Positions 1,377 through 54,375 of a stretch of 54,375 nucleotides of DNA are shown one piece after another. The DNA lies in assembly GCA_020440835.1 (NCBI GenBank), contig JAGRNI010000035.1, positions 1 through 54,375 of the forward strand, given 5' to 3'. The first letter of the stretch is position 1; every line of letters starts with the position of its first letter. The translations under genes and the position numbers were made by a program. Under the pieces are notes generated by a model. It saw only the letters and a list, made by a program, of their open reading frames with translations. It had not been told where the DNA came from and searched no databases. Source of the stretch: Leptospiraceae bacterium (GTDB taxonomy: Bacteria > Spirochaetota > Leptospiria > Leptospirales > Leptospiraceae).

Positions 1377-3605
1377 ATGGAATGGAATCTTGCTTCAATG
1401 GAACGATTGGGAATCATTTCTACTCCAATCAAAGAAGAAAAGGAGCACATTAAAAAGCTTTGTGAATCTTCTTTAGAAAATAATTTACTACGTTATGAAG
1501 ATTATTTAATCATTCGTGATTTAACTCACGTATCCCAAAATGTTTTTCCTATATACCCTCTTTTTGCAATTTTAATTGCTTTACTGGAAGAAATGAATAA
1601 CGGAGGTTTGTGTATTTCTCTTAAAAAAAGCAACCTTCAAAAAAGGCTAAGTAAGTTATTTGAAAATATCGTAAACACAGAAAATGTCGCAAGTGATTTT
1701 TTTAACTCATTAAATGAAAACAAACTTTCCGATTTTATTACCGAAATACAAGAACCTTATTTGGAAAAATATTCCGAATTGGGTCTAACAGATTCTTATA
1801 AGAATTTCGTTTTAGAAAATAATCGACAAAGTGGTAATTCTTACTTTGTAACAATAAAACCTCTGGTTCATTATGTAAAAAATGAGGAATCTTACCTCTT
1901 TTTGCAAAAATATTTTCTATACAGCATTCGATTAAAAGATACCATCCGTCAAAAATTAGAATTTAGGGAAAGAGTTCCAAGCACTACGGACATGAAAAAC
2001 TCTTTTGTCAAAGCAAAATTCGAAAGCAGAATACCGGAAATAGGGATTCCATTTGAACCCGGTTTGGAACAAAAATTACCGTTAGCTCTCTTTCGGCTAA
2101 CACGATTTTTAATTATTTCCGGAGGTCCTGGAACAGGGAAAACAACCTTAGTGAAAAGGATTTTGTATAGAATTCTGGAAGAAAATCCATCGCTTTTGGA
2201 GACTGACCTACTACTCACTGCCCCTACGGGAAAAGCAACTCAAAGACTAACCGAATCCATACAGGATGGAATACCGGATACGACAAACGAGTCAGCGAAA
2301 AAACTAAAAACCATAGAAGCGAAAACAATACATCGTGTTTTGGGTTATAGTCCGCATTACAATCATTTTATCTATCACAAAGACAATAAACTCCCTGTTA
2401 AAGTCGTTGTTGTTGACGAAGTTTCCATGATTGACATCATTCTTATGACAAATCTCTTAGAAGCAATTCCAGAAGATGCTACCGTTATTTTACTAGGGGA
2501 TAAAAATCAATTACCTTCCGTTGATTCAGGTGCTGTTTTATCTGACTTAGTTCCATCTGAAGATTCTTTAGCAACCTACTCCGAAGTCATTCAAAAATTA
2601 GCAAAAACAAATCTCAAATTAAACATCTCCCAAACAAACAAAGAGACAACTGACTTCTGTGATAAGATAGTTATTTTAAAAGAAAACCACAGGGAAAAAG
2701 TTGATAACAAATCTCTAAAAAATAGTATTTTTAAAATAGCGGAGCAAATCAATACAATAGGAAATGATAAAGATAAAGTTCAAAAATTTACATCCGAAGT
2801 AACTACCGTATATGATTTAATAGGATATCAAGATTTCTTTGATAGTTTGTTTGCAGAAACTTTATGGAATAAAAACGGAGTTTACTTTATAGACTCCAGT
2901 GTTTATGATAAAGAAAATTCCGGAAAGTTCTTTTATCGGTTGTGCGAAACCTTTTGGGACCATAGCCTCCTTAAAACAAATTATTTGGAACATCTTAATT
3001 ATTTTTCTAAAGAAAGCCTTGACAATGAAACACTAAACAATACAGAAAATGCGTTAAAACTAGACAGAATATTCCAAGTCATCCATAAAAATAAAATACT
3101 ACCGGTTGTGCGAAATGGAAAGTATGGAGTATATGGAATCAATTCCCATTTACGAGAGTACTGGAGAGGAAAGTTAAGAGAAAGAACCAATCTAAATTTT
3201 ATGAATGAAGAGCTACTATCCGGTCTTCCTGTTATTATTACCCAAAATGATTATAACAAAAAGCTATTTAATGGAGATATGGGTGTAATATTGGATGGAC
3301 AAAACGGGTTAATTGCAGTTTTTAAAAAGAATGAAAGATATATAAGCTTTTCTATTGACTTTTTATCCAGTTATGAATTGGCTTTTGCCATTACGGTTCA
3401 TAAGTCACAAGGCTCCGAATACGATAGCATTATCATCGCTTTACCCTCCGGGCAAAAAAACAAAATTTTAACAAAGGAAATACTTTACACAGGCATCACG
3501 AGGGCAAAAAGGTTTGCACTCGTTTATTCTGACAAACAAACACTTGAGACAACGATCTCAAAAAGAATAACAAGAGAGACAGGTCCATTCGTACCTGACA
3601 GATAA
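1377..3605 (+). CDS. recD: RecD-type helicase (exodeoxyribonuclease V alpha subunit-like)
   Basis: Walker A ISGGPGTGKTT, LTAPTGKATQRLTES, Walker B VVVDEVSMID, LGDKNQLPSVDSGAV, FNGDMGVILD, TVHKSQGSEYD and YTGITRAK all match E. coli RecD motifs in order. The N-terminal domain is RecD-like. There is a large insertion between the helicase lobes. Confidence 0.8.
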   Translation: MEWNLASMERLGIISTPIKEEKEHIKKLCESSLENNLLRYEDYLIIRDLTHVSQNVFPIYPLFAILIALLEEMNNGGLCISLKKSNLQKRLSKLFENIVNTENVASDFFNSLNENKLSDFITEIQEPYLEKYSELGLTDSYKNFVLENNRQSGNSYFVTIKPLVHYVKNEESYLFLQKYFLYSIRLKDTIRQKLEFRERVPSTTDMKNSFVKAKFESRIPEIGIPFEPGLEQKLPLALFRLTRFLIISGGPGTGKTTLVKRILYRILEENPSLLETDLLLTAPTGKATQRLTESIQDGIPDTTNESAKKLKTIEAKTIHRVLGYSPHYNHFIYHKDNKLPVKVVVVDEVSMIDIILMTNLLEAIPEDATVILLGDKNQLPSVDSGAVLSDLVPSEDSLATYSEVIQKLAKTNLKLNISQTNKETTDFCDKIVILKENHREKVDNKSLKNSIFKIAEQINTIGNDKDKVQKFTSEVTTVYDLIGYQDFFDSLFAETLWNKNGVYFIDSSVYDKENSGKFFYRLCETFWDHSLLKTNYLEHLNYFSKESLDNETLNNTENALKLDRIFQVIHKNKILPVVRNGKYGVYGINSHLREYWRGKLRERTNLNFMNEELLSGLPVIITQNDYNKKLFNGDMGVILDGQNGLIAVFKKNERYISFSIDFLSSYELAFAITVHKSQGSEYDSIIIALPSGQKNKILTKEILYTGITRAKRFALVYSDKQTLETTISKRITRETGPFVPDR

Positions 3606-3700
3606 AAGAATACCATAGGCTTTGTAGGGGCATCCCTCTGTGGTTGCCCTTTAAATGAAACCAAAATGTTATATCGAAATTATATTAAAAGGAAACAATT

Positions 3701-4858
3701 ATGAATTATTTTTTAAAGGAATCCGAATTATCCATACAAAAACTGTTTCGGGATTATGTGAACAAAAGAATCATACCCAGCAGATTTGAACTCGATCAAA
3801 AAAACGAGTTCCCCGATAAACATTTTGAAGAAATGGCTGTGTTAGATTTTTTCCGCGTTATGGTACCGGAAGAATACGGTGGTTTTGGAGACAACATCAT
3901 GCAACTAACCATTGCAATTGAAGAATTGTCGAGAGGAGATGGTGGGATTGGTGTTTCATTTGCAGTTGATTCGATTGCCACAAAGGCTCTAATTCTGTTT
4001 GGCAGCAAGCAACAAAAAACGAAATATTTACCTTCTATTGCAGATGGAAAAATTCTCACCGGTTTTGCCTTAACCGAACCCAACGCAGGGTCTGATGCTG
4101 GATCAATCAAAACAAGAGCCGTTCCAAAGAATGGTAGCTATGTAATAAACGGAGTCAAACAATTTATTACAAATGGCGAAGTAGCCTCTCTTTATGTTGT
4201 TTTGGCAGTTACCGACTCAGAAAAAGGGAAAAAGGGAGGACATACGGCGTTTTTAGTGGAAAAAGGTACGCCAGGTATTAGCTTTGGAAAAAAAGAAGAC
4301 AAAATGGGAATACGGTCTTCCGTCACTAGAGAGGTAATATTTGAGGATTGCGTAGTCCCGGAAGAAAATATATTGGGAAATCTTGGTCAAGGGTTTTATA
4401 TAGCTATGAATCTTTTGGACAAAAGTAGAATAGGAATTGGTGCCCAGGCAATTGGAATCGCGGAAGCAGCTTTAGAAGAAGCTTGCAAATATGCAAAACA
4501 AAGAAAGCAATTTGGTCAATCTATTCATTCGTTTCAGGGAATTCAATTTATTTTGGCTGATATGGCTACTGCTATAGAAGCGGCAAGATTATTGGTATAC
4601 CAAGCAGCAAAATTGGCTGATAGTGGCAGTGACGTTCCTTTAACAAAAATTGCTTCTATGTCCAAGCTGTTTGCTTCCGATACTGCTGTCAAAGTGACAA
4701 ATGATGCTTTGCAAGTATTCGGAGGTTATGGATACATGAAAGAATACCCAATGGAAAAATTTGTAAGAGATGCCAGAGTAACACAAATTTACGAAGGGAC
4801 AAATCAAATCCAAAGGCTTGCCATTGCAAATTCTTTGATCAAAGAACCTTTCTTTTGA
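3701..4858 (+). CDS. Acyl-CoA dehydrogenase
   Basis: Length and motifs of the ACAD family (..LTEPNAGSDAGS.., C-terminal ..YEGTNQIQRL..). SD AAGGAA upstream. Confidence 0.85.
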   Translation: MNYFLKESELSIQKLFRDYVNKRIIPSRFELDQKNEFPDKHFEEMAVLDFFRVMVPEEYGGFGDNIMQLTIAIEELSRGDGGIGVSFAVDSIATKALILFGSKQQKTKYLPSIADGKILTGFALTEPNAGSDAGSIKTRAVPKNGSYVINGVKQFITNGEVASLYVVLAVTDSEKGKKGGHTAFLVEKGTPGISFGKKEDKMGIRSSVTREVIFEDCVVPEENILGNLGQGFYIAMNLLDKSRIGIGAQAIGIAEAALEEACKYAKQRKQFGQSIHSFQGIQFILADMATAIEAARLLVYQAAKLADSGSDVPLTKIASMSKLFASDTAVKVTNDALQVFGGYGYMKEYPMEKFVRDARVTQIYEGTNQIQRLAIANSLIKEPFF

Positions 4859-4956
4859 AAATACGCTATAGGACAATATACACGAATTAGATTGGCTTTT
4901 GGAAAAGTATTTCAGGCTTCCAGTCTGAAAATAACTAGCAAGATGCTTGTTATACC

Positions 4957-12671: not shown

Positions 12672-15647
12672 ATGAAGATCAGAGATAAATTATTTCTTAG
12701 TAACACCATTTTTTTATTTATTGTTCTTTTTAGTGGGAGCATATTGTATTTTTCGATTAAGAGTATTGTCCGGAATTATATCAATTCGGAAATGGAAAAC
12801 ATAACCAATAATTCGGTAAAAATTGTAAAATCAGCAATCAACAGCTCAATAAAAAATCACCTTCAATCTGTCGCGAGCAAATCCAAAGAAATAACAAACT
12901 ATTATTACAATGGATTCAAACAAGGAAGAATGTCGGAAAAGGATGCCTTTCAAAAGGTCAAAAATATATTTTTGGATCCTGTGTATAATAAAATAGGTAC
13001 CAGTGGTTATCTGTGCGGTGTTTCCGGTAAAGGAATTTTAGTTATCCATCCAAAGGCAGAAGGAATGGACGCGAGTAAACTTGAATCCATAAAAAAAGCA
13101 ATATCTATGAAAACGGGTTATTTGGAGTATATGTGGAAAAATCCCGGTGAAGAAAAGGAACGTTTAAAGGCGGGAGGATTGGACTATTTTGAACCCTGGG
13201 ATTTAATTGTTTGGGCTTCTTCGTATAAAGAAGAATTTAATTTGTTAGTAAATCCGGATGATTTTCGAGAAGAAATTTTATCCATAAAAATTCAAAAAAG
13301 TGGTTATGTATATATTTTGGATAGTACCGGCAAGGCAATTATACATCCCTTTTTACAGGGACAAAACCTATACAATGTGAAAAGCTCCAAAGGTGTTTTT
13401 TTTATCAGGGAGATGTTAAAACAAAAAAACGGAAAAATATCCTATGCTTGGCAGAATTCCAATGAAACAAGCTTGAGAGATAAAACCGCTTATTTTCAAT
13501 ACATCCCTGAAATTGATTGGTTGCTTGTTGCAGTTAGTTATGATGATGAAATGTATAAAAGCCTAAATATTATCAAAGCTATTATTATAATGACGATCTT
13601 GATTACTTCCGTATTAACCGTATTAATTTCCATAAAAACAAGCTCTATGCTTAGTAAACCTATTCAAATTTTAATGAAGTCCATCCATGAGATGAAAAGT
13701 GGAAATGGACGCATCGCCAAACTAGAAACTAAGGATGAAATCGGAGAACTCGCTACAAAATTCAGTGAACTGACAACTAAAATTCAGAATGCGAACCAAG
13801 AGTTAAACAGACAAAACGAAATTATGAAAAATATGAATTCGGTATCCAGCCTCACGGATGTCATGACTTTTATCATGTATCACATAGAAACGGAATATGG
13901 ACTCAAGGATTTTTGGTTTGTAGTAAAAGATGAAACTTCCAACAGTTTAAAAACCTTTTGTTATGTAACACCGAATATGGAACAAAACGATTCGGAATTC
14001 TTTCAAAATTTCAATCTATCCGTAGAGGAAGATAGCCTATTGTGTGTCACTTATAAAAACCAGAAGATGCTCTATATGCCTATAGAGGAAAGTATGAGTC
14101 TATCTGATATTGATAAAAAGATAGTCCAAGAAGGAAAATTTTCATTTTTTTTGCAAGTCCCATTTGTAGTTTATGAAAAAACAATTGGAATTTTGGTTAT
14201 GCACAAAAAATCCGAAGAGAGAATTTCAGAAGAACTATTGACAAAATTAACTACGTTTTCAGACCAGGTGGCTGGATCCGTTTCCAATTCAAAACTATTC
14301 AAAGAAGTAGAGGTTGCAAAAGAAGAAGCAGAGAAAGCGAGAGAGCTATCTGAAAAAACAAAAGTAGAAATTGAAATCTTAAATGAAATATCCAAAAAAG
14401 TGAACTCGACCAATGATATAAATGAGATATTGGAAACCCTATTTTCCTTTATGATGGCGTTTTTTGGAATAGATAAATTTTGGTTGTTGCTAGTAGATAC
14501 ACAGAGAAATGAGCTTGTTACGTATACTACGGAAAATTTTGAAGAGTTAGGGATGGATGCTATTCAATTTTTTAGCCAATTCAGGCATCCTTTAAATACA
14601 GAACTTGGTTTTTTATATTCAACCTACCGAAAGAAAAAACCATTTTATATAAAGGATTTACGTAGATTCTTTCCCAAATTAAGCGAAATGAATAAGAAAA
14701 TAGCCCAAACATCTAGAATATTATCCTACATCCAGATTCCTTTGATTTTGCAAGACGAGGTAATTGGAATTTTATTAATGGCTAGGAATAATAAAGAACT
14801 GAGTTTATCCAAATTAGATATCACTAAAATTGATAGATTCTGCCAACAAATTTCGGGAGCAATCTATAACTCTAATTTATTAAAAGAAACAATAGAAGCA
14901 AAACTTGAATCGGAAAATCTTTTACATAATATTCTGCCTCCCAAAGTAGCTGAGGAATTAAAAGAGAAAGGTGAAGTTCAACCCGTTCATTATGAATCCG
15001 TTAGTGTGATGTTTACAGACTTCAAAGGTTTTACCAAGGTCGCAGAGAGTATGAGTGTTCAGGATTTGGTCAAGGAATTGGATGGATGTTTCTTTCAATT
15101 TGATGAAATTGCTCAACGTTATAATATGGAAAAGATAAAAACCATAGGGGATTCGTATATGTGTGCCGGGGGATTACCGGAAGTAAACCATACCCATGTT
15201 ATTGACGTTTGCTTGGCAGCTCTTGAAATTCAAGGACTTATGAACCAGATGAAAGTAATCAAAGAGATGATGGGCTTGCCATTTTGGGAGCTTCGACTTG
15301 GGATTCATACCGGTTCTGTGATTGCCGGAGTGGTTGGAAAGAAAAAGTTTGCTTATGATATTTGGGGAGATACAGTAAATACGGCATCACGGATGGAGTC
15401 TAGTGGTGAACCAGGAAGGATCAATATTTCGGGTAGTGTTTATAAAAAGATCAAGTACTTCTTTGAATGTGAATATAGGGGAAAAGTAAAGGCAAAAAAC
15501 AAAGGCGAGATTGATATGTATTTTCTGCATCGTTTAAAAAAGAAATATGCAAAAGACGAAGAAGGAAGAGTACCAAATGATGAATTTAGTGAGATTTATG
15601 ATAAGATAAAAAGAGGTGGAAAGGTGGTAGGTAAAGAGGAAAAATAA
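12672..15647 (+). CDS. Membrane adenylate/guanylate cyclase: Cache-like periplasmic domain, HAMP, 2x GAF, class III cyclase domain
   Basis: C-terminal CYCc motifs (VSVMFTDFKGFT; KTIGDSYM; LRLGIHTGSVIAGVVG; WGDTVNTASRMES). N-terminal TM-periplasmic-TM topology. Confidence 0.85.
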   Translation: MKIRDKLFLSNTIFLFIVLFSGSILYFSIKSIVRNYINSEMENITNNSVKIVKSAINSSIKNHLQSVASKSKEITNYYYNGFKQGRMSEKDAFQKVKNIFLDPVYNKIGTSGYLCGVSGKGILVIHPKAEGMDASKLESIKKAISMKTGYLEYMWKNPGEEKERLKAGGLDYFEPWDLIVWASSYKEEFNLLVNPDDFREEILSIKIQKSGYVYILDSTGKAIIHPFLQGQNLYNVKSSKGVFFIREMLKQKNGKISYAWQNSNETSLRDKTAYFQYIPEIDWLLVAVSYDDEMYKSLNIIKAIIIMTILITSVLTVLISIKTSSMLSKPIQILMKSIHEMKSGNGRIAKLETKDEIGELATKFSELTTKIQNANQELNRQNEIMKNMNSVSSLTDVMTFIMYHIETEYGLKDFWFVVKDETSNSLKTFCYVTPNMEQNDSEFFQNFNLSVEEDSLLCVTYKNQKMLYMPIEESMSLSDIDKKIVQEGKFSFFLQVPFVVYEKTIGILVMHKKSEERISEELLTKLTTFSDQVAGSVSNSKLFKEVEVAKEEAEKARELSEKTKVEIEILNEISKKVNSTNDINEILETLFSFMMAFFGIDKFWLLLVDTQRNELVTYTTENFEELGMDAIQFFSQFRHPLNTELGFLYSTYRKKKPFYIKDLRRFFPKLSEMNKKIAQTSRILSYIQIPLILQDEVIGILLMARNNKELSLSKLDITKIDRFCQQISGAIYNSNLLKETIEAKLESENLLHNILPPKVAEELKEKGEVQPVHYESVSVMFTDFKGFTKVAESMSVQDLVKELDGCFFQFDEIAQRYNMEKIKTIGDSYMCAGGLPEVNHTHVIDVCLAALEIQGLMNQMKVIKEMMGLPFWELRLGIHTGSVIAGVVGKKKFAYDIWGDTVNTASRMESSGEPGRINISGSVYKKIKYFFECEYRGKVKAKNKGEIDMYFLHRLKKKYAKDEEGRVPNDEFSEIYDKIKRGGKVVGKEEK

Positions 15648-15664
15648 AATAATAGACTTGCTGG

Positions 15665-15770
15665 GACTGTGTAAAAAGCCGGTTTTTTGCTCCCTTCGAC
15701 TGCGATCAGGGAGCGTTTGGAGGATTTTCGGACATTGAGCGTAGTCGAAATATCCCTTTTTACACAGCCT
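15665..15770. repeat. REP-like palindromic intergenic element, copy 1
   Basis: Outer 12-bp inverted repeat CTGTGTAAAAAG / CTTTTTACACAG. Inner core CCCTTCGACTGCGATCAGGGAGC...TTCGGACATTGAGCGTAGTCGAAATATCC is shared with 19138-19217. It lies between the convergent 3' ends of the cyclase and traB genes. Confidence 0.5.
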
Positions 15771-15801
15771 CAGTGTCATGGTAAGCCTATTTGAACCCGT
15801 T

Positions 15802-16962
15802 TTAAGCCAGTATATCGTTTAAAAATTTAAACCATATAAACGTTCCGATACTACTTCCAAGCTGTGGAAGCATAAACACCAAAAAGATTCGAATCACCCT
15901 GTTTTTCCAATAACCCGTAAAGTGTTCCGAATCTTCGGCAATTCTTTCAAAGTCTTCTACCAGAGGTTTCCGTAGCCAAGATTCAACCAGTGCAGCGACC
16001 CAACCCGGTTTCAAAATCGGATTAAAGTTACCCAAAGGTGCAATTACAAATGACAACACAATCGACAAAGGATGAGCAAGTGCAATCAATGCTCCGAGAG
16101 CTGCCAGTGCCCCTTTGACCAGAATCCAAGCCCAGATAGCTTCTACGGTAGCCGTTTCTCCGCCTTTTATATAGGTGTATGCCAATAAAGCAAGCAATAT
16201 AATAGGAAAAATTAACCAAGATAGCTTTTGTCCAAGAGTTTTAGGAGGAATTTTGTTCAAAACATCCAAATCATTCTCTTTTCCTATCTGTTCCATTATA
16301 CCAGAGAGATGACCAGCACCTACTACGGCAAATAATTTCTGAGAATCTTTGGCAGAATTTTTTATATTTTGAGCTAAATATATATCTCTTTCATCAATAA
16401 TAACGTTTTTGATTTGATCATATCGACTTGGTAATTGAGAAAACAGATCTTTTAAAACGTCTTCACTCTTCATTTCCTCGATTTTTTCTTCCGAAACGTC
16501 TTCTTTTACCAACAAAGACGCTATCAATGCAGACAAAAGATACATCTTGGAAAAAAAGCCTACACTTCCCCAAGACCTTTTTAGAGTAGTTTGGATTTCC
16601 CTATCTATAGGAATAACTTTTGAACCGGCATCTTCTCCGCATTTGATTGCCTTTCTCATTTCATCGCCAGGCTTTACATCTCCTTTCCCTAATTTTTTTT
16701 GAAAAGAAGATAAAATCAAATTAGAAAGCAGCAGATACATTTTTCTCTCTTTGAACACCTTAAAAATATCCAATTTTTTCCAGTGTTCAGGGTCTTTTAC
16801 CGCTTTCATTCTTGTTTCACAAAGTTCAACACAAACAGTATCCGGTTTTTCATCTTGAATAATTTTTTCAACGGTATCGACGCTCTGTTTACTTATGTGA
16901 GCTGTCCCTAATATGATGACATCACAATTGCCTATTTTTAATTTCCTAATGGGTTCTTCCAT
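15802..16962 (-). CDS. TraB/GumN (Tiki-like) family protein with C-terminal TM helices
   Basis: N-terminal ILGTAHISKQSV...PDTVCVELCETR signature of the TraB family. Hydrophobic C-terminal third. Confidence 0.75.
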   Translation of the reverse strand: MEEPIRKLKIGNCDVIILGTAHISKQSVDTVEKIIQDEKPDTVCVELCETRMKAVKDPEHWKKLDIFKVFKERKMYLLLSNLILSSFQKKLGKGDVKPGDEMRKAIKCGEDAGSKVIPIDREIQTTLKRSWGSVGFFSKMYLLSALIASLLVKEDVSEEKIEEMKSEDVLKDLFSQLPSRYDQIKNVIIDERDIYLAQNIKNSAKDSQKLFAVVGAGHLSGIMEQIGKENDLDVLNKIPPKTLGQKLSWLIFPIILLALLAYTYIKGGETATVEAIWAWILVKGALAALGALIALAHPLSIVLSFVIAPLGNFNPILKPGWVAALVESWLRKPLVEDFERIAEDSEHFTGYWKNRVIRIFLVFMLPQLGSSIGTFIWFKFLNDILA

Positions 16963-16963
16963 T

Positions 16964-18079
16964 CTAACTCCCTAATTTGTTTGTGCTCTGGTAGTTATAC
17001 AAAGCCAATAATTCATACGCAGCTTGAAAAGACGTATGTTTTCCTAAAAATACGCTTTTCTCCATTTCCGGTATTTTACTCTTGATTTGAGGATTGTTGT
17101 AAAAGTTCGACTTCAGGCTTTCTTCAATGGTTTGGTGCATCCAATATTTCGATTGTTCTAAACGCTTTTTTTCAAAGTATCTGTTATTTTTCACTAGCTC
17201 AGAATAAGACAAGATCAAATTCCAAATTTCCTGAATGCCATCCCCTGTCACAGCGGAACAAATTTCTACTCCTGGAATCCATCCGGATTCGGTAGGTGGG
17301 AAAAGGTGTAGAGCTGCGATATAGTCGGATTTTGCCAGATTTGCACTGTTTATGTTAGTTCCATCTGCTTTTGTGATGGCAATTAAATCCGCCATTTCCA
17401 TAATTCCTCTTTTGATCCCTTGTAGCTCGTCTCCGGCTCCGGCAAGCATCAAGAGTAAAAAAAAGTCAACCATGGAATGTACGGCTATTTCCGATTGTCC
17501 TACTCCTACAGTTTCCACAAAAATTGTGTCAAATCCAGCTGCTTCACACAAAACGATGGTTTCTCTTGTTTTTCTGGCAACTCCTCCTAAAGAATTTCCA
17601 GCCGGAGAAGGGCGAATAAAAACGTTCTCATCTTTGGAAATTTCTTCCATCCTTGTTTTGTCTCCCAAAATACTTCCTTTGGACAACTGGCTGGTCGGAT
17701 CGATTGCTAAAACACACAATTTTCGTTTTTGACCTACCATAAATTTTCCAAGGGTCTCAATAAAGGAACTTTTTCCTACCCCAGGAACACCGGTAATCCC
17801 AATACGCATTGACTTGCCGGAATAAGGTAAACAAAGTCCGATTATTTTTTGGGCAATATCCGTATGATCAGGGTGAGTACTTTCGATAAGCGTTATAGCT
17901 TGGCTCAGGATAACACGATTTCCTGCAAGGATTCCTTCTTCGTATTCTTCCGGAGCAAGCTTACGCTTTCTTTTGTAAGAAGCTGCAAATTTTGAGTTAA
18001 TCGCTTCCGGTTGTGCAACTCCAGGTTGCACAAATAATGCAGATTCCTTGCCTTCGCTCATACAAAAACCTTTATCCAA
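16964..18079 (-). CDS. meaB: Methylmalonyl-CoA mutase-associated G3E GTPase MeaB/ArgK
   Basis: P-loop GITGVPGVGKSSFIETLG plus the downstream G3E family motifs. 1-nt gap to traB, same strand. Confidence 0.85.
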   Translation of the reverse strand: MDKGFCMSEGKESALFVQPGVAQPEAINSKFAASYKRKRKLAPEEYEEGILAGNRVILSQAITLIESTHPDHTDIAQKIIGLCLPYSGKSMRIGITGVPGVGKSSFIETLGKFMVGQKRKLCVLAIDPTSQLSKGSILGDKTRMEEISKDENVFIRPSPAGNSLGGVARKTRETIVLCEAAGFDTIFVETVGVGQSEIAVHSMVDFFLLLMLAGAGDELQGIKRGIMEMADLIAITKADGTNINSANLAKSDYIAALHLFPPTESGWIPGVEICSAVTGDGIQEIWNLILSYSELVKNNRYFEKKRLEQSKYWMHQTIEESLKSNFYNNPQIKSKIPEMEKSVFLGKHTSFQAAYELLALYNYQSTNKLGS

Positions 18080-18159
18080 AACTATCGTTTTTTTTCAATG
18101 GTGTGGATATAGGTCTTAAATTCAATACAATTATCCCGGTTTTATAAGTAGTAAGGCAT

Positions 18160-18220
18160 AAATTTTGAAAAAAGTACCACAGTCATCTTGGCTGTGATTA
18201 CAGGCTAGACGACCTGTAAT
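18160..18220 (-). terminator. Tandem hairpins with T-run: terminator of the HAD lipoprotein gene
   Basis: CACAG-N9-CTGTG followed on the minus strand by TACTTTTTTC. Adjacent 8-bp stem ATTACAGG/CCTGTAAT. Confidence 0.4.
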
Positions 18221-18236
18221 ACTTTACAATTTCTTT

Positions 18237-19130
18237 TCACCTCTTAATCGTTTTATTGATTCGTATTCCAAAGTCTTTGGATGAAATATTAGGAAAGTTC
18301 GGTTTCGGAACATCCTCAATTCTAACGATCACCCAATTGTTTTTTTTGGCATATTCGGCAATGCTTTCTTTTTGATCTTCTGCTATGTGCTCATCCGGAT
18401 TTACGATCAATTTCAACCCGCGGCTAAATTCTATCATTTCTTTATCACCTCGACTATTCCCACCTACAACCAAAGGAACCTCTTGCACAAAAGTCTCAAT
18501 GGCTTCTTTTTTCCCATGATCTTGGGGAACGGGTGGCACTATCTCGGAAGTAATACTGCCATTACGAATAATGGATTTCACCCCTACGACATTAGTTAAA
18601 GGAATATGCAATTCTTGGCTTAAAAATTCCTGGTACAATGCCTCCGGGCTTGCCGTAATTATCCAAACCTCAAATCCGTTTTCTTTTAGCTTACCGATCA
18701 GGCTTACCATTGGTCTGAAAACTTTCCCTTTGTAGTATTTGTAATAACATTCAACGCCCAACTTGCGTAAAGATTTTACTGAATCTCCTTCAAAAAATTT
18801 GACCCGAAGCTGTACATATTCAATGGACACATTGGAAAGACCTTGCATTCTCTTGATTATTGCTGGCTTTTTGCTTTTGTCCTTTTTGGCGATTTCATAG
18901 AGACATTCATCAGCAAGATAATGAGGAGCTTGTCCGAGAACGGTACCATCACCATCAAAAACGGCAACCTTTCGTTCTTTTACATTTTTTACGCTTTTCA
19001 AGAACTCTTCAATCTTAGCGTTAGTCTCTTTGTCAAACTCAAGTTTTGTTAATCTGGTAGGTTCCTTGTAACAACCAAGTAAGAGTAAACAAAACATAAT
19101 AATTATTCTTTTCATTATTAACATCACCAT
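18237..19130 (-). CDS. HAD-IB family phosphatase-like lipoprotein
   Basis: Lipobox LLLGC. HAD motif I FDGDGTV, motif II ITAS, motif IV GNSRGDKEM. Confidence 0.65.
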   Translation of the reverse strand: MVMLIMKRIIIMFCLLLLGCYKEPTRLTKLEFDKETNAKIEEFLKSVKNVKERKVAVFDGDGTVLGQAPHYLADECLYEIAKKDKSKKPAIIKRMQGLSNVSIEYVQLRVKFFEGDSVKSLRKLGVECYYKYYKGKVFRPMVSLIGKLKENGFEVWIITASPEALYQEFLSQELHIPLTNVVGVKSIIRNGSITSEIVPPVPQDHGKKEAIETFVQEVPLVVGGNSRGDKEMIEFSRGLKLIVNPDEHIAEDQKESIAEYAKKNNWVIVRIEDVPKPNFPNISSKDFGIRINKTIKR

Positions 19131-19137
19131 ATGAAAC

Positions 19138-19217
19138 GCACCCTTCGACTACGCTCAGGGAACACTCTTCGACACGATGAGGGAGCATTTCGGACATTGA
19201 GCATAGTCGAAATGTCC
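19138..19217. repeat. REP-like palindromic element, copy 2 (with a partial internal duplication)
   Basis: CCCTTCGACTACGCTCAGGGAAC...TTCGGACATTGAGCATAGTCGAAATGTCC. Long-range complement TCGACTACG/CATAGTCGA. Stem GGACAT/ATGTCC. Lies immediately 3' of the MVP-like gene stop. Confidence 0.5.
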
Positions 19218-19218
19218 A

Positions 19219-21717
19219 TCAATCCTTTTTCTTTTGGATAATTTTTCCGACTGTATCACTTCCAATGTTAAGGAAAACACCTTCTAGTTTGGTCCCTTTT
19301 AAGAGCTTGGCAAAAACATCTGCAACGGATTCTCCTCCCAAAATAGACAAGGGTGCCATAGAAGATGCCACTTTTTGCAGAAGTTCTTTGTCAGAGAATG
19401 CTTGCAGAGCTGCAATCAAATCCGGTGAAATAGCCTTTGCCTTTTCAACAACAGCCTTCAACTCGGTTTCGATCTCTTTTGCATAAAGTTCATATTCTTT
19501 TTCTTTGAAATAGTATTCTTGCTCATTGGAACGTTTTTCCCTTTGAAGCGTTAACTCGTTAATTTTTCCAAGCAGTTCTTCCTCTTTGAACTCTCCGTCT
19601 AGTTTCAGTTCTTTTGTCTTTCTTTCGGAATCAATTTTGGCAATTTCCAATTCTACCTTTTTCTCCAGTTCTTCTTTTTCATAACCAAAGATGGATTTAT
19701 TGGTTTCATACTGGGCTTCGGCGGTTTGCTGCTTGATAGATTCTAAGAATTTTGTAATTTCTAATTTGGATTTTTCTTTCATTAAAATGGCAGACTCTTG
19801 GATCAAAGACTGTTGAGCTTCCATTAGCAATTGAGCAATTTTTGTATCTTTAATGGCTACGTTCACAACTTCCACATCATAAACAAACATATTGTTTTCT
19901 CCAAACATATACCCTGTTTTCAAGTCTTCGCCCAAAATGGTTTTTCGAATAATGTCAAAAGAATTCAGATAAAAATCATTGATCGTATAGGTTTTTACAA
20001 CCGAACTTAAAATAGAACGAAACCTATCCGTTAAGAATTTTACATAGTTTTCTACATTAAACCATTTGGAAGAGTCATCTTGGAAGTTCAAACGGTAGGA
20101 TACTTTTAGTTCTAATGTAACGAAATCTTTTGTTTCCACATCAAGAGTATCAGACACTTTATTGTTCAAAACTCTCAAATAAACGTCATGGAACAGTTTG
20201 GTATCCGTTTTAGGATTCCCACAGGATAGAGAAAATACTTGTAATTCCTCATCGTACTCGAGCAAATACGTTCTGGGTCCGGAAATTACCTTACGTTCTC
20301 CCGTCTTTCCCACAACCATAATGGCATATCCCGTCCAAACATTAACAGCAACAGCTCCTTCATACTTAGTGTCCAGTGTAATGGTTCTTGGCGGAGTGTA
20401 TAGAGACCTTCTATCAAAAGAATCTGCGGAAAAAGCGTTTCCGGTTTCCTCGTCCCAAGAGTCCGTAAATGGTTCTTCAAAATCTTGTGCAGGTAGAGCC
20501 ATTTGAGGAGATGCCGGTCTCTCCTTTAACTTTTTTAATTCCTTTTTTAATTCTTCGTTCACTTCCTGGGCTTTCTGATTGCCGGGAAACCAAAGGGAAA
20601 CCTGTCTTTTTTCTAATATTCTTTTTACGATAACTTCTTTTCTGGGGTCGGGTAAAAACATATCGGGACCTTTCTGCAAAAATACATCTCCCGTCAATCT
20701 ATTCATAACGTACCTTGCTTCTCCTTCCGGAATAGCAACGGCGTAGTGAAGTTCGTTATCTCCGTATTTGATAACAGCGTGTTCTTTGCGAGGAAAATAG
20801 ATCATCATGTCTTTCCCCGTAAGGAATAGCTCTTCGCCCTCTTTGTAGTCTTTTCCATTTTCCGAATAAGGTGCAATTACCTTAATGTATATTCCTTTAA
20901 TCTCGCTAAGTTCAATCGCCTTGAATTTTCGCTTGCCTTCCACTTCTATAAAGGATTCGGTAGGCTCCGGGAACACAACCTCCGGTCCTTTTACATACCT
21001 TTTGTTTCCACTTTCATCCAGCAAGATGCAATATTCCAGTCTCTCTAAGGTTACGGCTTTGCGAATGTATTCCCCTTTCTCACCTTTGACAACTTCAATT
21101 CCTGTTGGAGGAATATAAAAAGATATGTTTGTTCCTTTGATTACGAGCTGTTTTCCCAAAGAAAGTTTACTCACGTCAATACTCTGAGTTTCCGTTGTAC
21201 CGGCGGTCTGGCTTTTGATTACGGCTTTTTCCCAGTTTTCTTGAGCTGCCTTTTCGTCGTAAACTCGAACCACAAGATATTGATTAGACCTCAGGTAATG
21301 TCCTTTGATAACATTTACCATCTGCCCGGGCCACAGAGGAAAAGAAACCGGACCGGGTATGCTTACCTTATGACCAACGTTTAATTCAACCATGTTGCTG
21401 ACAGTTCCCGTTTTGGGAGAAGAGTTGTCTTTAGCCGGATTTTTTAGTGTAAGATACCAGCCTTCCGGAGAGATGGCAAAAGTCTGAATGGATTGTTCCA
21501 GTGTACACTTCTCAAACCTCTTGCTATCTTGTCGAAATAAAATGGGTTGATCTGTGTTGGACAAACTCGCTTTGTAAGGACCAACATACACATTGATATT
21601 CCCTTTGGTCTGGTCGGATATAAATGCAAATTCATTAGGGGACAAAATAAGGTCTCTTTCTCTTCTTTCTTCAGGCATTTCTTTTTCCTTGTTCAAATTT
21701 TGGTTCATTCTTTTCAA
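19219..21717 (-). CDS. Major vault protein (MVP) homologue: MVP-type N-terminal repeat, shoulder domain and C-terminal coiled-coil cap-helix region
   Basis: N-terminal LSPNEFAFISDQTKGNINVYVGPYKASLSNTDQPILF parallels vertebrate MVP [38 protein letters not shown]. ..LKVSYRLNFQD..WFNVENYVKFLTDRFRSILSSVVKTYTINDFYLNSFDIIRKTILG parallels the MVP shoulder ..[56 protein letters not shown]. A long E/K-rich coiled coil follows, and the tail ..LIAALQAFSDKELLQKV..ADVFAKLLKG resembles the MVP C-terminus. Confidence 0.7.
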   Translation of the reverse strand: MKRMNQNLNKEKEMPEERRERDLILSPNEFAFISDQTKGNINVYVGPYKASLSNTDQPILFRQDSKRFEKCTLEQSIQTFAISPEGWYLTLKNPAKDNSSPKTGTVSNMVELNVGHKVSIPGPVSFPLWPGQMVNVIKGHYLRSNQYLVVRVYDEKAAQENWEKAVIKSQTAGTTETQSIDVSKLSLGKQLVIKGTNISFYIPPTGIEVVKGEKGEYIRKAVTLERLEYCILLDESGNKRYVKGPEVVFPEPTESFIEVEGKRKFKAIELSEIKGIYIKVIAPYSENGKDYKEGEELFLTGKDMMIYFPRKEHAVIKYGDNELHYAVAIPEGEARYVMNRLTGDVFLQKGPDMFLPDPRKEVIVKRILEKRQVSLWFPGNQKAQEVNEELKKELKKLKERPASPQMALPAQDFEEPFTDSWDEETGNAFSADSFDRRSLYTPPRTITLDTKYEGAVAVNVWTGYAIMVVGKTGERKVISGPRTYLLEYDEELQVFSLSCGNPKTDTKLFHDVYLRVLNNKVSDTLDVETKDFVTLELKVSYRLNFQDDSSKWFNVENYVKFLTDRFRSILSSVVKTYTINDFYLNSFDIIRKTILGEDLKTGYMFGENNMFVYDVEVVNVAIKDTKIAQLLMEAQQSLIQESAILMKEKSKLEITKFLESIKQQTAEAQYETNKSIFGYEKEELEKKVELEIAKIDSERKTKELKLDGEFKEEELLGKINELTLQREKRSNEQEYYFKEKEYELYAKEIETELKAVVEKAKAISPDLIAALQAFSDKELLQKVASSMAPLSILGGESVADVFAKLLKGTKLEGVFLNIGSDTVGKIIQKKKD

Positions 21718-28545: not shown

Positions 28546-29406
28546 TTAATCAATCGAAACACCTAGCTCCTTCAATTTTAGAGCAAGAGTTTGAGCCCGT
28601 TCTTTTTCCTTGTCCGCCCGTTCTTTTTCCTTGTCCGCCCGTTCTTTTTCCTTGTTTGCCCGTTCTTTTTCCTTGTTTGCCCGTTCTTTTTCCTTGTTCG
28701 CTCGTTCTTTTTCCTTGTTTGCCTTTACTTTTTCTTTTTTAGCTTTTATTTTTTCTTTTTCTGCTATGATTCGCTCTTTTTCATCCGGTAAAAGAACGAG
28801 ATTACCGGCTTTATCAAATAACCTTAACCATTTACCCACTGTTTCAAATACTTTTCCTTCCCACAAACCAACATACAAGCCCAACTCCTTGGAATATATC
28901 CAACCGCGTGAGTCTTTTTTTTCTTCTTTGTATACTTCCAAATCATAATCCCAACGCCAACCTTGAAACGTATTTTCCCGAAATGGATAATACACATAGT
29001 ATTCTGGAGTATGAAAATCATTTCCGTATATCTTCAAATTATCTACTCTATCTTTCTTTTTACTCGAAGGCGAGATGAATTCCACTATAAAGTTCGGATA
29101 GCAAAACCCTTCTTTTCGAACTACCCATTTTAATCTTTTTTTCGTTCCATCGATTCCCTTTACTATAAAGAAATCCGGTCCAACGGATTTAGCGGGTGGC
29201 TCCGAATGATAGTAGATAAACATATTTCCGCCGGCAAAAAAATCATCTTTATCTTTCCAATATTCACGAATGGAATACAGCAGAACGGCAATTGAGTCGA
29301 GATGTTCGGGGTTTTCCAAGGGTACATCATCCGTATCAGGTAGTAAATCATCATAATCAGGGGGGTATATTTCGATATTTTTAGTTAATAACAGTGTTTC
29401 TTGCAT
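28546..29406 (-). CDS. Putative Uma2/DUF820-like (PD-(D/E)xK) nuclease-fold domain fused to a C-terminal KEKERAN heptad-repeat (ER/K-rich helix) tail
   Basis: N-terminal domain with ..GPDFFIVKG.. and ..PNFIVEFISPSS.. resembling the Uma2 core (PD..VE.S motif). The C-terminal 8 heptads are encoded by the 21-bp DNA tandem repeat. Confidence 0.5.
   Translation of the reverse strand: MQETLLLTKNIEIYPPDYDDLLPDTDDVPLENPEHLDSIAVLLYSIREYWKDKDDFFAGGNMFIYYHSEPPAKSVGPDFFIVKGIDGTKKRLKWVVRKEGFCYPNFIVEFISPSSKKKDRVDNLKIYGNDFHTPEYYVYYPFRENTFQGWRWDYDLEVYKEEKKDSRGWIYSKELGLYVGLWEGKVFETVGKWLRLFDKAGNLVLLPDEKERIIAEKEKIKAKKEKVKANKEKERANKEKERANKEKERANKEKERADKEKERADKEKERAQTLALKLKELGVSID
28599..28765. repeat. 21-bp tandem repeat (GTTCTTTTTCCTTGTYYGCYC) x6 near-perfect units plus 2 degenerate units, inside the CDS
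   Basis: Read directly. The units at 28599, 28620, 28641, 28662, 28683 and 28704 differ by 0-3 nt. The reverse complement encodes ADKEKER/ANKEKER heptads. Confidence 0.9.
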
Positions 29407-54227: not shown

Positions 54228-54375
54228 TTTTTAGCATATCGCACAACGTTAGAGCATACCCGAAGCTGGCGATAGCCAGTTTCACCGAGCAAATGAGCCT
54301 ATTCCAATGCAAGTGCTGTGACTGAGTAACTTCCAATCATACGAAGGCACAACACTTGCTTGGAGTTCCAAGCCT
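54228..54375. repeat. Candidate structured RNA / repeat element, copy B (truncated by the window end)
   Basis: Aligns base-for-base with 52003-52147, including the covarying hairpin and the GCAAGTGC/CACTTGC helix. Confidence 0.5.

What the first reader, a model, noticed from the sequence alone, without database searches (positions are those of the whole stretch)
15665..19217. REP-like palindromic element family in gene 3' regions; one copy abuts the MVP-like gene
15689-15755 and 19138-19217 share CCCTTCGACT(G/A)CG(A/C)TCAGGGA..TTCGGACATTGAGC(G/A)TAGTCGAAAT(A/G)TCC. Both have a long-range complement (TCGACTNCG/CGTAGTCGA) and an internal GGACAT/ATGTCC stem. Copy 1 is additionally enclosed by a 12-bp inverted repeat (CTGTGTAAAAAG/CTTTTTACACAG). 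Copy 2 carries a partial internal duplication (CTCTTCGACACGATGAGGGAG). Both sit immediately after stop codons (convergent cyclase/traB ends; MVP-like stop). This is consistent with REP or MITE-like elements acting as terminators or mRNA-stability elements, or with miniature mobile elements.
Basis: seen in the sequence. Interest (0 to 1): 0.5.

Follow-up and report, generated by a model that had tools for sequence, protein, structure and literature searches.

The report
Hairpin repeats tied to small GIY-YIG nucleases
The two look-alike intergenic palindromes are real. They are stray copies of a tiny DNA hairpin found in at least a dozen bacterial phyla, which normally flanks the gene of a small nuclease related to the recently described single-strand-DNA cutter Ssn.

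Summary
Both conserved blocks occur exactly twice in the window, against 0 expected by chance.

Each copy is a composite: a forward unit, a 15-31 nt spacer, and a reverse unit. A unit is a 4-7 bp stem of variable, covarying sequence that closes a conserved 12-nt loop, TCGACTNCGCTC (core TTCGACTNCGCTCA).

The unit is not specific to this genome.

In 80 metagenome loci chosen only for encoding a ~95-aa single-domain GIY-YIG nuclease, units are 39-fold enriched within 300 nt of the gene. They are ordered F..R-gene-F..R. The window's reverse unit matches, 24 of 24 nt, the unit just downstream of one such gene.

This nuclease clade is 34% identical to Neisseria SsnA. SsnA is a site-specific ssDNA nuclease whose gene is flanked by its own hairpin repeat (NTS/SRM).

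The unit does not fit the published SRM consensus, nor the GTAG or CGTC REP tags. It has no target-site duplication, no terminator T-tract and no Rfam match.

Best reading: these are solo, non-autonomous copies of an Ssn-like nuclease's cognate ssDNA hairpin, a new variant of a known kind. Nuclease activity was not tested, and it is not known whether the source genome encodes the enzyme.

The parts
15667..15678 (.). Left arm of a locus-specific outer inverted repeat (CTGTGTAAAAAG) that encloses composite 1. It is not part of the repeat family.
   Evidence: sequence; the whole 108 nt folds as one long hairpin, z = -3.2 on the plus strand and -5.2 on the minus strand. No flanking direct repeat. 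In other genomes, units likewise sit at the tip of longer locus-specific stems.
15689..15714 (+). Forward unit of composite 1. The stem GCTCCCT/AGGGAGC (7 bp) closes the loop TCGACTGCGATC. The core is 15695-15708, with one change (A at 15705 where the family has C).
   Evidence: ssDNA fold -9.4 kcal/mol, z = -4.4. Family consensus.
15715..15729 (.). Spacer between the forward and reverse units of composite 1 (loop start to loop start 41 nt).
   Evidence: adjacent F-to-R pairs have a median spacing of 49-61 nt in other genomes.
15730..15755 (-). Reverse unit of composite 1. On the minus strand it reads GGATATT-TCGACTACGCTC-AATGTCC. The core on the plus strand, TGAGCGTAGTCGAA, is at 15736-15749.
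   Evidence: CGGACATTGAGCGTAGTCGAAATG lies about 30 nt downstream of a GIY-YIG gene in metagenome locus L154; it matches the consensus of the window's two copies at 24 of 24 positions and each single copy at 23 of 24.
15756..15767 (.). Right arm of the outer inverted repeat (CTTTTTACACAG).
19141..19160 (+). Forward unit of composite 2. The stem CCCT/AGGG closes the loop TCGACTACGCTC, which is the family consensus. The core is 19144-19157. On the minus strand its GAAGGG lies 11-16 nt upstream of the HAD start codon.
19165..19185 (+). Degenerate extra forward-type unit (CTC-TTCGACACGATGA-GGGAG), matching the core at 11 of 14 positions.
   Evidence: Partial or tandem duplications of units are common in the family (L009, L027, L066, L082, L104).
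19192..19217 (-). Reverse unit of composite 2. On the minus strand it reads GGACATT-TCGACTATGCTC-AATGTCC, with a perfect 7-bp stem. It ends 1 nt from the MVP-like gene's stop codon.
   Evidence: ssDNA fold -4.6 kcal/mol, z = -2.95.

Best explanation
The two elements are solo, non-autonomous copies of a hairpin-repeat family. That family is the cognate flanking repeat of a widespread, horizontally transferred clade of single-domain GIY-YIG nucleases, which is a sister clade of the Ssn ssDNA nucleases.

Shown: the basic unit is a short DNA hairpin. Its stem is 4-7 bp, free to vary as long as it pairs, and always ends in a T-A pair. Its loop is an almost invariant 12 nt, TCGACTNCGCTC. In the window each element is a forward unit followed by a reverse unit. 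The same F..R module brackets the nuclease gene in other genomes, as F..R-gene-F..R.

Inferred, by analogy with Neisseria SsnA and its NTS repeat (Chenal et al. 2025, PMC11893778): when the DNA is single-stranded, during replication, repair, transformation or conjugation, the unit folds. The small nuclease then recognises the conserved loop and stem junction and nicks nearby. This activity, or the IS-like repeat-gene-repeat architecture, is responsible for seeding and maintaining solo copies around the genome. Solo copies occur at the tips of pre-existing hairpins and in-frame inside genes.

In this window the copies are passengers. No nuclease gene is present. Any effect on the neighbouring genes would be secondary, for example a structured 80-nt spacer between the MVP-like and HAD genes that also carries a GAAGGG stretch upstream of the HAD start.
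For: Family membership and structure:
- Both blocks are non-random in the window.
- 132 of 134 hits carry C at the unconstrained position. 121 of 134 are preceded by CC, which completes the stem.
- Among 89 units not selected by the search pattern, the flanks pair contiguously with a mode of 4 bp, while shifted controls give about 0. Stems include CCCT/AGGG, GGCT/AGCC, GGTT/AACC, CACT/AGTG and TGCT/AGCA.
- Formal count on 123 distinct units: 83.9% of cells paired against 56.5 +/- 1.4 in shuffles; 224 double-sided changes against 91 +/- 6.5 (0 of 500 shuffles reach it); slid controls 25-48%.

Link to the nuclease:
- A ~95-aa GIY-YIG ORF lies within 250 nt of units in 5 of the 120 loci, from 4 genomes in different phyla. 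Three of these proteins, from three phyla, are 70-72% identical to each other.
- Independent test: of 80 metagenome loci chosen by the protein alone, 56 contain units. There are 156 units in the 45 kb within 300 nt of the gene (3.5 per kb), against 19 in the 215 kb beyond 500 nt (0.09 per kb). Orientation is F then R on each side.
- With a relaxed core, 43 of 61 loci have at least one unit within 300 nt and 26 of 61 are flanked on both sides. Published values for ssnA and its SRM are 71% and 42%.
- The window's own reverse-unit subtype sits directly after a GIY-YIG gene in L154 and L170.
- The same arrangement occurs around an annotated 'GIY-YIG nuclease family protein' on a Sphingomonas plasmid.

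Homology to Ssn:
- 34% identity over 79 aa to the N. gonorrhoeae SsnA ortholog, which is itself flanked by NTS. BLASTP E = 1e-11; hhalign probability 97.4%.
- 35% identity to an NTS-flanked Aeromonas Ssn.

Insertion-like behaviour:
- A unit is present in-frame in the HsdM gene of L135 and absent from the homologues L137 and L123.
- Units lie in-frame in MnmE of two Flavobacteriaceae.
Against: - No nuclease gene was found in the 54-kb window: an HMM search of all ORFs of at least 40 aa gave no hit. The rest of the source MAG could not be read.
- The clade's nuclease activity, strand specificity and cut site are untested. Identity to SsnA is only 34%, and the clade is about as close to the uncharacterised UPF0213 proteins (PDB 1zg2, E = 2e-14).
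- The unit does not fit the published SRM consensus, so recognition may differ.
- Most copies, in genomes and in viral contigs, are far from any nuclease gene. A role independent of the enzyme is therefore not excluded.
- 18 of 61 nuclease loci lack the unit even in relaxed form. By eye, several of these carry diverged variants of the same design.
Confidence: 0.62

Rival explanations
1. Classical REP/REPIN elements mobilised by a RAYT (IS200/IS605-type tyrosine transposase).
For: - They are small extragenic palindromes, often in inverted pairs, like REP dimers.
- The window's copy 1 contains GTAG inside CGTAGTCG.
Against: - The GTAG falls on the variable loop position. N in the forward loop is A 119, G 47, T 25, C 19; copy 2 reads ATAG.
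- It lies inside the loop, not as an unpaired 5' tag before a conserved stem (definition in PMC3733652).
- Here the stem varies and the loop is conserved.
- No recurrent transposase family appears near units in 120 loci. The recurrent neighbour is a GIY-YIG gene.
Confidence: 0.04
2. A MITE: a deletion derivative of an insertion sequence, moved by a DDE transposase that recognises the terminal inverted repeats.
For: - Copy 1 is bounded by a 12-bp inverted repeat.
- Copies show presence/absence between homologous loci.
Against: - No target-site duplication next to the 12-bp repeat.
- That repeat is absent from copy 2 and from other genomes.
- The conserved part is a 14-nt core in the middle of the unit, not the termini.
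- Unit insertions have no fixed length. The HsdM case is a net +15 nt with a shared CGAA at the junction.
Confidence: 0.05
3. A functional RNA hairpin: an intrinsic terminator, an mRNA 3'-end stabiliser, or a protein-binding RNA motif selected at gene ends.
For: - Both copies sit at gene ends and fold better than shuffles as RNA (z = -1.8 to -5.2).
- In 120 loci the median distance from a unit to the nearest gene 3' end (108 nt) is shorter than to the nearest 5' end (213 nt).
- Stem covariation would also fit an RNA structure.
Against: - No terminator-like site (hairpin plus T-tract) in 15400-19500, against 3.6 expected in shuffles.
- No Rfam match at the gathering score or at E <= 10.
- Orientation relative to transcription is mixed: 26 against 42 in co-directional intergenic spacers, and 40 against 27 inside ORFs.
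- Forward and reverse units occur together, so either strand carries a forward unit.
- About a third of units lie inside ORFs of at least 120 aa, some in-frame in conserved proteins.
- SsnA, the characterised relative of the associated enzyme, does not act on RNA (PMC11893778).
Confidence: 0.12
4. The conserved core is a double-stranded DNA site, for example a DNA-uptake-type sequence or a binding site of a conserved protein. On this view the link with the nuclease gene is incidental.
For: - The 14-nt core is extremely conserved across phyla.
- It occurs as inverted pairs at gene ends and also inside genes, as Neisseria DUS and Haemophilus USS do.
Against: - A double-stranded site does not explain the covarying 3-6 bp that flank the core.
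- Density is low: two composites in 54 kb.
- Enrichment next to the nuclease gene is 39-fold, with a fixed F..R order.
Confidence: 0.05
5. Chance similarity between two intergenic regions.
For: Only two copies occur in the window.
Against: - 0 of 100 shuffles give even one match to either block.
- There are hundreds of copies elsewhere, and their unconstrained positions are conserved.
Confidence: 0.01

Closest known systems
Ssn nucleases and their NTS/SRM hairpin repeats (Chenal et al., Nat Commun 2025, PMC11893778; includes Neisseria dRS3/NTS)
   Same: - The enzyme is a ~94-105 aa protein with only a GIY-YIG domain.
- Its gene is bracketed by short hairpin-forming repeats on one or both sides: 70% and 43% of loci here, 71% and 42% published.
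- Many more solo copies are scattered in the genome, often clustered or paired.
- The family spans many phyla.
- The clade here is homologous to the N. gonorrhoeae ortholog of SsnA: 34% identity, E = 1e-11, hhalign 97.4%.
   Different: - The repeat does not match the SRM consensus HGTCWY..YYVSBRH..WNVSBRG..RNCYNB. The regex finds the NTS controls but gives 0 hits in the window and 2 in 308 kb of nuclease loci.
- The design differs. Here a conserved 12-nt loop sits on a 4-7 bp variable stem. NTS has an 8-9 bp stem, a 3-5 nt loop and conserved unpaired boxes.
- The order around the gene differs. Here it is F..R on each side. In N. gonorrhoeae, the locus I read, the NTS copies on the two sides face each other as an inverted pair.
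- The protein clade has its own signature, REKQVQGWSRKKKEALI, against REKQLKKWxRxWKxxLIE in Ssn.
- Activity is untested.
GTAG- and CGTC-tagged REP superfamilies (Di Nocera et al. 2013, PMC3733652); REPIN/RAYT
   Same: - Short extragenic palindromes.
- Frequent head-to-head dimers.
- Occasional intragenic copies.
- Present in several phyla.
   Different: - No conserved GTAG or CGTC tag.
- The loop is conserved rather than the stem.
- No RAYT association.
- By the published criteria this would be a third type.
Rickettsia palindromic elements (RPE) (own knowledge: Ogata et al. 2000; RPE-4 and RPE-6 are classed as CGTC repeats in PMC3733652)
   Same: Palindromic repeats that insert in-frame into protein-coding genes without destroying them.
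   Different: RPEs are 100-150 bp and specific to Rickettsia. The units here are 20-26 nt and shared by many phyla.
Small dispersed repeats (SDR) of Nostoc (own knowledge: Elhai et al., Genome Res 2008)
   Same: - Very small (21-27 nt) dispersed, apparently mobile repeats.
- Nested and tandem partial copies, as seen here in cyanobacterial loci.
   Different: SDRs are reported as restricted to Nostocaceae (PMC5861425). The SDR paper is not held, so the sequences could not be compared.

Membership tests
Ssn / SRM system (PMC11893778) | The associated protein is a single-domain GIY-YIG nuclease of about 94 aa. | tested here: met
   The only Pfam hit is PF01541, covering residues 1-73 of 102-117 aa proteins. 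Homologues are mostly 99-130 aa.
Ssn / SRM system (PMC11893778) | The protein belongs to the SsnA clade (CDD cd10448; blastp to Nm SsnA E < 1e-10 with 75% coverage). | tested here: inconclusive
   - 34% identity over 79 of 94 aa to the N. gonorrhoeae SsnA ortholog. Pairwise E = 1e-11; hhalign 97.4%.
- It is about equally close to UPF0213 BH0048.
- CDD assignment could not be run.
Ssn / SRM system (PMC11893778) | The gene is flanked by hairpin-forming repeats, often on both sides. | tested here: met
   43 of 61 loci have a unit within 300 nt and 26 of 61 on both sides. Local enrichment is 39-fold.
Ssn / SRM system (PMC11893778) | The repeat fits the SRM consensus HGTCWYN(0-2)YYVSBRHN(0-5)WNVSBRGN(0-2)RNCYNB. 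| tested here: not met
   The regex matches canonical NTS and the Aeromonas flanks. It gives 0 hits in the window, 2 in 308 kb of nuclease loci and 0 in the Sphingomonas locus.
Ssn / SRM system (PMC11893778) | Site-specific cleavage of ssDNA only, on one strand, next to the repeat. | not testable with these tools
   Needs purified protein and oligonucleotide substrates.
Ssn / SRM system (PMC11893778) | The carrier genome encodes the nuclease (81% of SRM-rich genomes do). | not testable with these tools
   There is no GIY-YIG ORF in the window. The source MAG's other contigs are not retrievable.
REP / REPIN (RAYT-associated, GTAG-tagged) | A conserved unpaired GTAG tetranucleotide at one end of a conserved stem. 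| tested here: not met
   GTAG appears only when the variable loop base N is A. It lies inside the loop, and the stems are not conserved.
REP / REPIN (RAYT-associated, GTAG-tagged) | Association with a RAYT (IS200/IS605 Y1 transposase) gene flanked by the repeat. | tested here: not met
   Neighbour-gene clustering in 120 loci found no recurrent transposase. The recurrent flanked gene is a GIY-YIG gene. This covers only 8-kb loci, not whole genomes.
CGTC-tagged REPs (dRS3, RPE-4/6) | A terminal CGTC (or TGTC/CCTC) tag, an 8-9 bp stem beginning with A-T pairs, a 4-5 nt loop and a CCA tail (PMC3733652). | tested here: not met
   The unit has a 4-7 bp stem, a 12-nt loop, and no CGTC tag or CCA tail.
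MITE | Terminal inverted repeats shared by all copies, plus a target-site duplication. | tested here: not met
   The 12-bp inverted repeat is unique to copy 1, and no direct repeat flanks it.
Intrinsic (Rho-independent) terminator | A G+C-rich hairpin with a short loop, followed by a T-tract. | tested here: not met
   0 terminator-like sites in 15400-19500 on either strand. The loops are 12 nt and no T-run follows either composite.
Known structured RNA family (Rfam 15) | A match to a curated covariance model. | tested here: not met
   No hit at gathering scores in the whole window. Around the copies there is only noise, at E >= 0.9.

The most novel reading that the evidence does not exclude
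The TTCGACTNCGCTCA hairpin would be a third, previously uncatalogued superfamily of REP-like repeats, alongside the GTAG and CGTC types. It would be found across most bacterial phyla. It would be the substrate of a distinct, horizontally transferred Ssn-like ssDNA nuclease clade that typically rides between hsdM and hsdS of type I restriction-modification operons. On this reading it is a new selfish or defence-linked ssDNA-cutting module, whose footprints are tolerated even inside conserved proteins.
Probability: 0.35. Interest if true: 0.8.

Novelty: new variant of a known kind. Interest (0 to 1): 0.6.

Why it matters
The origin and upkeep of small bacterial palindromic repeats that lack a RAYT transposase has been an open question. 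Di Nocera et al. 2013 stated it explicitly for the CGTC repeats.

Ssn/NTS gave a first answer for one motif class. The repeat found here looks like a second, structurally different motif class, paired with a sister nuclease clade.

Three features stand out:
- Its 14-nt core is shared almost unchanged by Bacteroidota, Cyanobacteriota, Spirochaetota, Proteobacteria, candidate-phyla-radiation bacteria and others.
- It is often embedded in type I restriction-modification operons.
- It can sit in-frame in housekeeping proteins.

If the enzyme cuts ssDNA at this hairpin, it would add a new specificity to the emerging set of site-specific ssDNA nucleases. It would also explain a very common source of 'hypothetical' micro-ORFs, assembly breaks and odd peptide insertions in genomes and MAGs.

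For this window alone the consequence is modest. Two intergenic regions are occupied by passenger hairpins.

Tried and rejected
- **Rfam.** The whole window at gathering scores, and both copies at E <= 10, gave nothing usable.
- **Literature search by sequence.** DNA strings and the peptides they encode (PFDKLR, SLSAVEG and others) returned only primers or nothing.
- **SDR paper.** Elhai 2008 could not be read, so that comparison rests on memory and on one sentence in PMC5861425.
- **Orthologous empty site for the window.** The HAD protein and the 100%-identical MeaB protein are not on record. The 85%-identical relative (L121, L122) and the 66%-identical Leptospiraceae relative (L203-L206) have different neighbours on both sides. 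No empty or filled comparison was possible for these two sites.
- **Generic neighbour-gene recurrence in the 120 pattern-selected loci.** With ORFs of at least 100 aa, the large clusters were response regulators or kinases, ABC ATPases, sugar epimerases and TPR proteins, so they were uninformative. The GIY-YIG signal appeared only as a 3-locus cluster and needed an HMM on shorter ORFs.
- **A universal RNA as template for the conserved core.** I considered tRNA T and D arms, tmRNA, 16S and 23S rRNA segments from memory. I found only partial resemblances and did not pursue them.
- **BLAST of copy 1 against plasmids.** Only marginal hits.
- **Window-specific block B in viral contigs.** 0 hits.
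- **Close relatives of the nuclease in viral contigs.** None confirmed. Units do occur there as solo copies.
- **Looser core matches in the window.** The hits at 18926, 29806 and 39226 lie in coding sequence, have no stems, and are chance.

Full report
**1. What is in the window**

The two regions share two blocks that occur nowhere else in the 54 kb. Shuffles never produce either block. They are CCCTTCGACTRCGMTCAGGGA (15692-15712, 19141-19161) and TTCGGACATTGAGCRTAGTCGAAATRTCC (15727-15755, 19189-19217).

Read together, each region has three parts: a forward unit, a spacer, and the same kind of unit in reverse.

- Copy 1, forward unit: GCTCCCT-TCGACTGCGATC-AGGGAGC (15689-15714).
- Copy 1, reverse unit: on the minus strand GGATATT-TCGACTACGCTC-AATGTCC (15730-15755).
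- Copy 2, forward unit: 19141-19160.
- Copy 2, degenerate extra forward unit: 19165-19185.
- Copy 2, reverse unit: 19192-19217.

Because a forward and a reverse unit are present, the 14-nt cores can also pair with each other.

Copy 1 is enclosed by a further 12-bp inverted repeat (15667-15678 / 15756-15767) with no flanking direct repeat.

Gene context:
- Copy 1 lies between a convergent Cache/GAF adenylate-guanylate cyclase gene and a TraB/PrgY-family gene.
- Copy 2 fills the 88-nt spacer between the stop of an MVP-shoulder/SPFH protein gene and the start of a HAD hydrolase gene on the same strand.

The window is about 34% G+C. It comes from a Leptospiraceae MAG, because its MeaB protein is 100% identical to an NCBI protein of that name.

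**2. The unit is a hairpin with a conserved loop and a free stem, shared by many phyla**

These come from:
- Bacteroidota and Cyanobacteriota (many each);
- Spirochaetota (Treponema, Leptospiraceae, Turneriella);
- Gamma- and Betaproteobacteria;
- Desulfobacterota, Campylobacterota, Acidobacteriota, Gemmatimonadota, Chloroflexota, Methylomirabilota, Cloacimonadota, Lentisphaerota and Ignavibacteriota;
- several Patescibacteria.

These are not chance hits. 132 of 134 have C at the position left free in the pattern, and 121 of 134 are preceded by CC. The two exceptions, an archaeal MAG and a Clostridia MAG, probably are chance.

Isolate genomes are included, one of them a complete one, so this is not an assembly artefact.

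The same 916 kb contained 89 further units that the search pattern had not selected. In these the four bases on either side of TCGACNNNGCTC pair contiguously, with a mode of exactly 4 bp. Partners shifted by 1-3 nt give essentially none. The stem sequence changes freely: CCCT/AGGG, GGCT/AGCC, CACT/AGTG, TGCT/AGCA, GGTT/AACC, CGTT/AACG and others. The innermost pair is almost always T-A. The loop base N is A 119, G 47, T 25, C 19.

A formal count was made on 123 distinct units, 119 of which come from loci chosen through a protein (see section 3):
- 83.9% of cells are paired, against 56.5 +/- 1.4 in shuffles.
- 224 cells have changes on both sides, against 91 +/- 6.5, and 0 of 500 shuffles reach the observed value.
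- Slid controls give 25-48%.

Units occur singly, as F-then-R pairs (median spacing 49-61 nt; 41 and 54 nt between loop starts in the window), as tandem arrays of 23-28 nt period, and with partial duplications. Some sit at the tip of much longer locus-specific stems. This matches copy 1's outer inverted repeat.

**3. What the unit goes with**

Orientation relative to neighbouring genes is mixed. About a third of units lie inside ORFs of at least 120 aa, some of which may be spurious in G+C-rich genomes. No Rfam family matches. There is no terminator-like hairpin-plus-T-tract in the region. This argues against a strand-specific RNA role as the primary function.

Clustering the ORFs around the 120 loci gave mostly generic families. 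One small cluster was different. It is a ~95-aa protein, 70-72% identical between a cyanobacterium, an acidobacterium and a Paludibacter, with units immediately next to it. It contains only a GIY-YIG catalytic domain. Its nearest solved structures are the uncharacterised UPF0213 proteins.

I then tested the association independently. 80 metagenome loci were fetched by similarity to this protein alone.
- 56 of them contain units.
- There are 156 units within 300 nt of the gene (3.5 per kb) and 19 beyond 500 nt (0.09 per kb), a 39-fold enrichment.
- The order is consistent: forward then reverse upstream, and forward then reverse downstream.
- With a slightly relaxed core, 43 of 61 loci with enough flank have a unit within 300 nt and 26 of 61 have units on both sides.
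- Loci without the canonical core carry visibly related variants, such as TTCGGCTCCGCTCA, TTCGAGAACCTCA, or TTCGA-[extra hairpin]-CTCA.

The window's own reverse unit ties directly to this gene. CGGACATTGAGCGTAGTCGAAATG lies about 30 nt downstream of such a gene in L154 and matches the consensus of the window's two copies at all 24 positions (each single copy at 23 of 24). A close variant sits in the same place in L170.

An annotated 'GIY-YIG nuclease family protein' on a Sphingomonas parapaucimobilis plasmid is 46% identical and is bracketed by the same units.

The protein family is very large. At least 7,979 clusters at 90% identity reach E <= 1e-10, and the search was saturated. Members are 80-90% identical between Bacteroidota and Candidatus Electrothrix, which points to horizontal transfer.

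**4. Comparison with what is known**

Chenal et al. 2025 (PMC11893778) showed that Neisseria SsnA, a 94-aa single-domain GIY-YIG protein, is a site-specific nuclease that acts only on ssDNA. Its gene is flanked by the hairpin repeat NTS, a subset of dRS3. Hundreds of solo NTS copies populate the genome, and thousands of homologues in many phyla are flanked by related 'SRM' hairpins. The authors note the IS-like repeat-gene-repeat layout.

I recovered a bona fide comparison set. One member is an Aeromonas gene flanked by canonical NTS on both sides. The other is the N. gonorrhoeae SsnA ortholog (94 aa), also flanked by NTS.

The clade found here is 34-35% identical to these over the whole catalytic domain. 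BLASTP gives E = 1e-11 and 3e-14; hhalign gives 97.4%. The enzymes are therefore homologous, with the same size and architecture, but they form a distinct subfamily.

The repeat is different.
- The published SRM regular expression recognises the NTS controls. It gives 0 hits in the window, 2 in 308 kb of nuclease loci and 0 in the Sphingomonas locus.
- The unit has neither of the tags (GTAG, CGTC) that define the two REP superfamilies of Di Nocera et al. 2013. Its geometry, a 4-7 bp stem and a 12-nt conserved loop, is unlike theirs, an 8-9 bp stem and a 4-5 nt loop for CGTC.

It works like an Ssn/SRM pair. One defining feature of SRM membership was tested and failed. Membership of the protein in cd10448 is undecided.

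**5. Mechanism: what is shown and what is inferred**

Shown:
- the hairpin design and its covariation;
- the tight, ordered association with the nuclease gene;
- homology of that gene to SsnA;
- the cross-phylum spread;
- insertion-like presence/absence.

The clearest presence/absence case is in HsdM. L135 reads ...ARWQNR-SLSGAEGD-ERNN.... Its homologues L137 and L123 read ...ARWQQREISER.... This is a net in-frame gain of 15 nt, with CGAA shared at the junction. Units also lie in-frame in MnmE of two Flavobacteriaceae.

Inferred:
- The unit is recognised as a folded ssDNA hairpin and cut nearby by the nuclease.
- This activity, or the cassette's mobility, seeds the solo copies.

How copies spread is unknown. 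The lack of target duplications, the variable insert length, the nesting inside other units, the one-sided partial duplications, and the preference for the tips of existing palindromes would fit ssDNA-level or repair-templated processes better than cut-and-paste transposition. This is speculation.

In the window the copies are most simply passengers. No nuclease gene is present.

**6. Limits**

- I could not read the rest of the source genome.
- I could not find a syntenic relative to show an empty site for either copy.
- I could not assign CDD families, and nothing here tests enzymology.
- The 80 protein-selected loci are the best matches to one sub-clade and may over-represent one genomic context.

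**7. Verdict**

The REP/MITE/terminator interpretation is only partly right.

The elements are solo copies of a cross-phylum hairpin repeat that is paired with an Ssn-like GIY-YIG nuclease clade. This is a new variant of a recently described kind of system, and I found no description of this motif in the searchable literature.

Confidence:
- that the elements belong to this family and that the family is linked to the nuclease gene: about 0.9;
- that they act as ssDNA substrates of that nuclease: about 0.6.

Noticed in passing
L123-L202 (e.g. L162 3001-3270 with HsdS at 3531-4922; L202 HsdM at 1265-2992; L153 HsdR at 3-2990): The GIY-YIG-plus-hairpin cassette very often sits inside type I restriction-modification operons on the same strand. 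HsdS lies downstream in 30 loci, HsdM upstream in 27 and HsdR nearby in 14. Only 48 of the 80 loci are longer than 3 kb. Pfam confirms Methylase_S, N6_Mtase and HSDR_N/EcoR124_C. It may be a preferred insertion site or a functional link to defence.
   Followed up: partly
L012 and L015 (MnmE gene); L019 and L108 (apparent T9SS C-terminal sorting domain, identified by eye only); L135 about 2525-2550 (HsdM): Units are inserted in-frame in conserved protein genes. They add peptides such as VSLSAVEGS, PFDCAQGD or SLSGAEGD. L012 MnmE also carries an in-frame inverted pair of a related variant (LSLSKS...KRFDKGS).
   Followed up: partly
window 19131-19150, minus strand: The reverse complement of composite 2's forward unit places GAAGGG 11-16 nt upstream of the ATG of the HAD hydrolase gene (start at 19130). 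The element may therefore supply or overlap that gene's ribosome-binding site.
   Followed up: no
window 28574-28783: A tandem array of about 7-10 copies of a 21-nt unit (GCCCGTTCTTTTTCCTTGTYY), which decays towards one end. It lies inside the minus-strand ORF 28546-29406 and would encode a 7-residue repeat (family D1).
   Followed up: no
window 52017-52134 and 54246-54363: A 118-nt direct repeat, 86% identical, with copies 2.2 kb apart near the end of the window (family D2).
   Followed up: no
window 19219-21717 (minus) and 43049-51115 (minus): Two unusual genes: a bacterial protein with major-vault-protein shoulder, Vault_3 and SPFH domains, and a 2,688-aa ORF. Neither was examined further.
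   Followed up: no
L213-L332 (IMG/VR contigs): The unit is also common in contigs classed as viral. Almost none of these loci carries the nuclease gene: there is 1 weak hit, and it is not adjacent to a unit.
   Followed up: partly
PLSDB records NZ_CP119140.1 and NZ_CP119142.1 (L212): Two 2.17-Mb Neisseria gonorrhoeae records are filed as plasmids in the plasmid collection, and they are evidently chromosomes. This was useful, because it gave the SsnA ortholog and its NTS flanks.
   Followed up: yes
L208 (Methylobacterium), L166, L187, L183: In more distant nuclease loci the flanking repeat keeps the outer TTCGA...CTCA ends, but the middle is expanded into an extra hairpin. This suggests the two ends are the recognised parts.
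   Followed up: no
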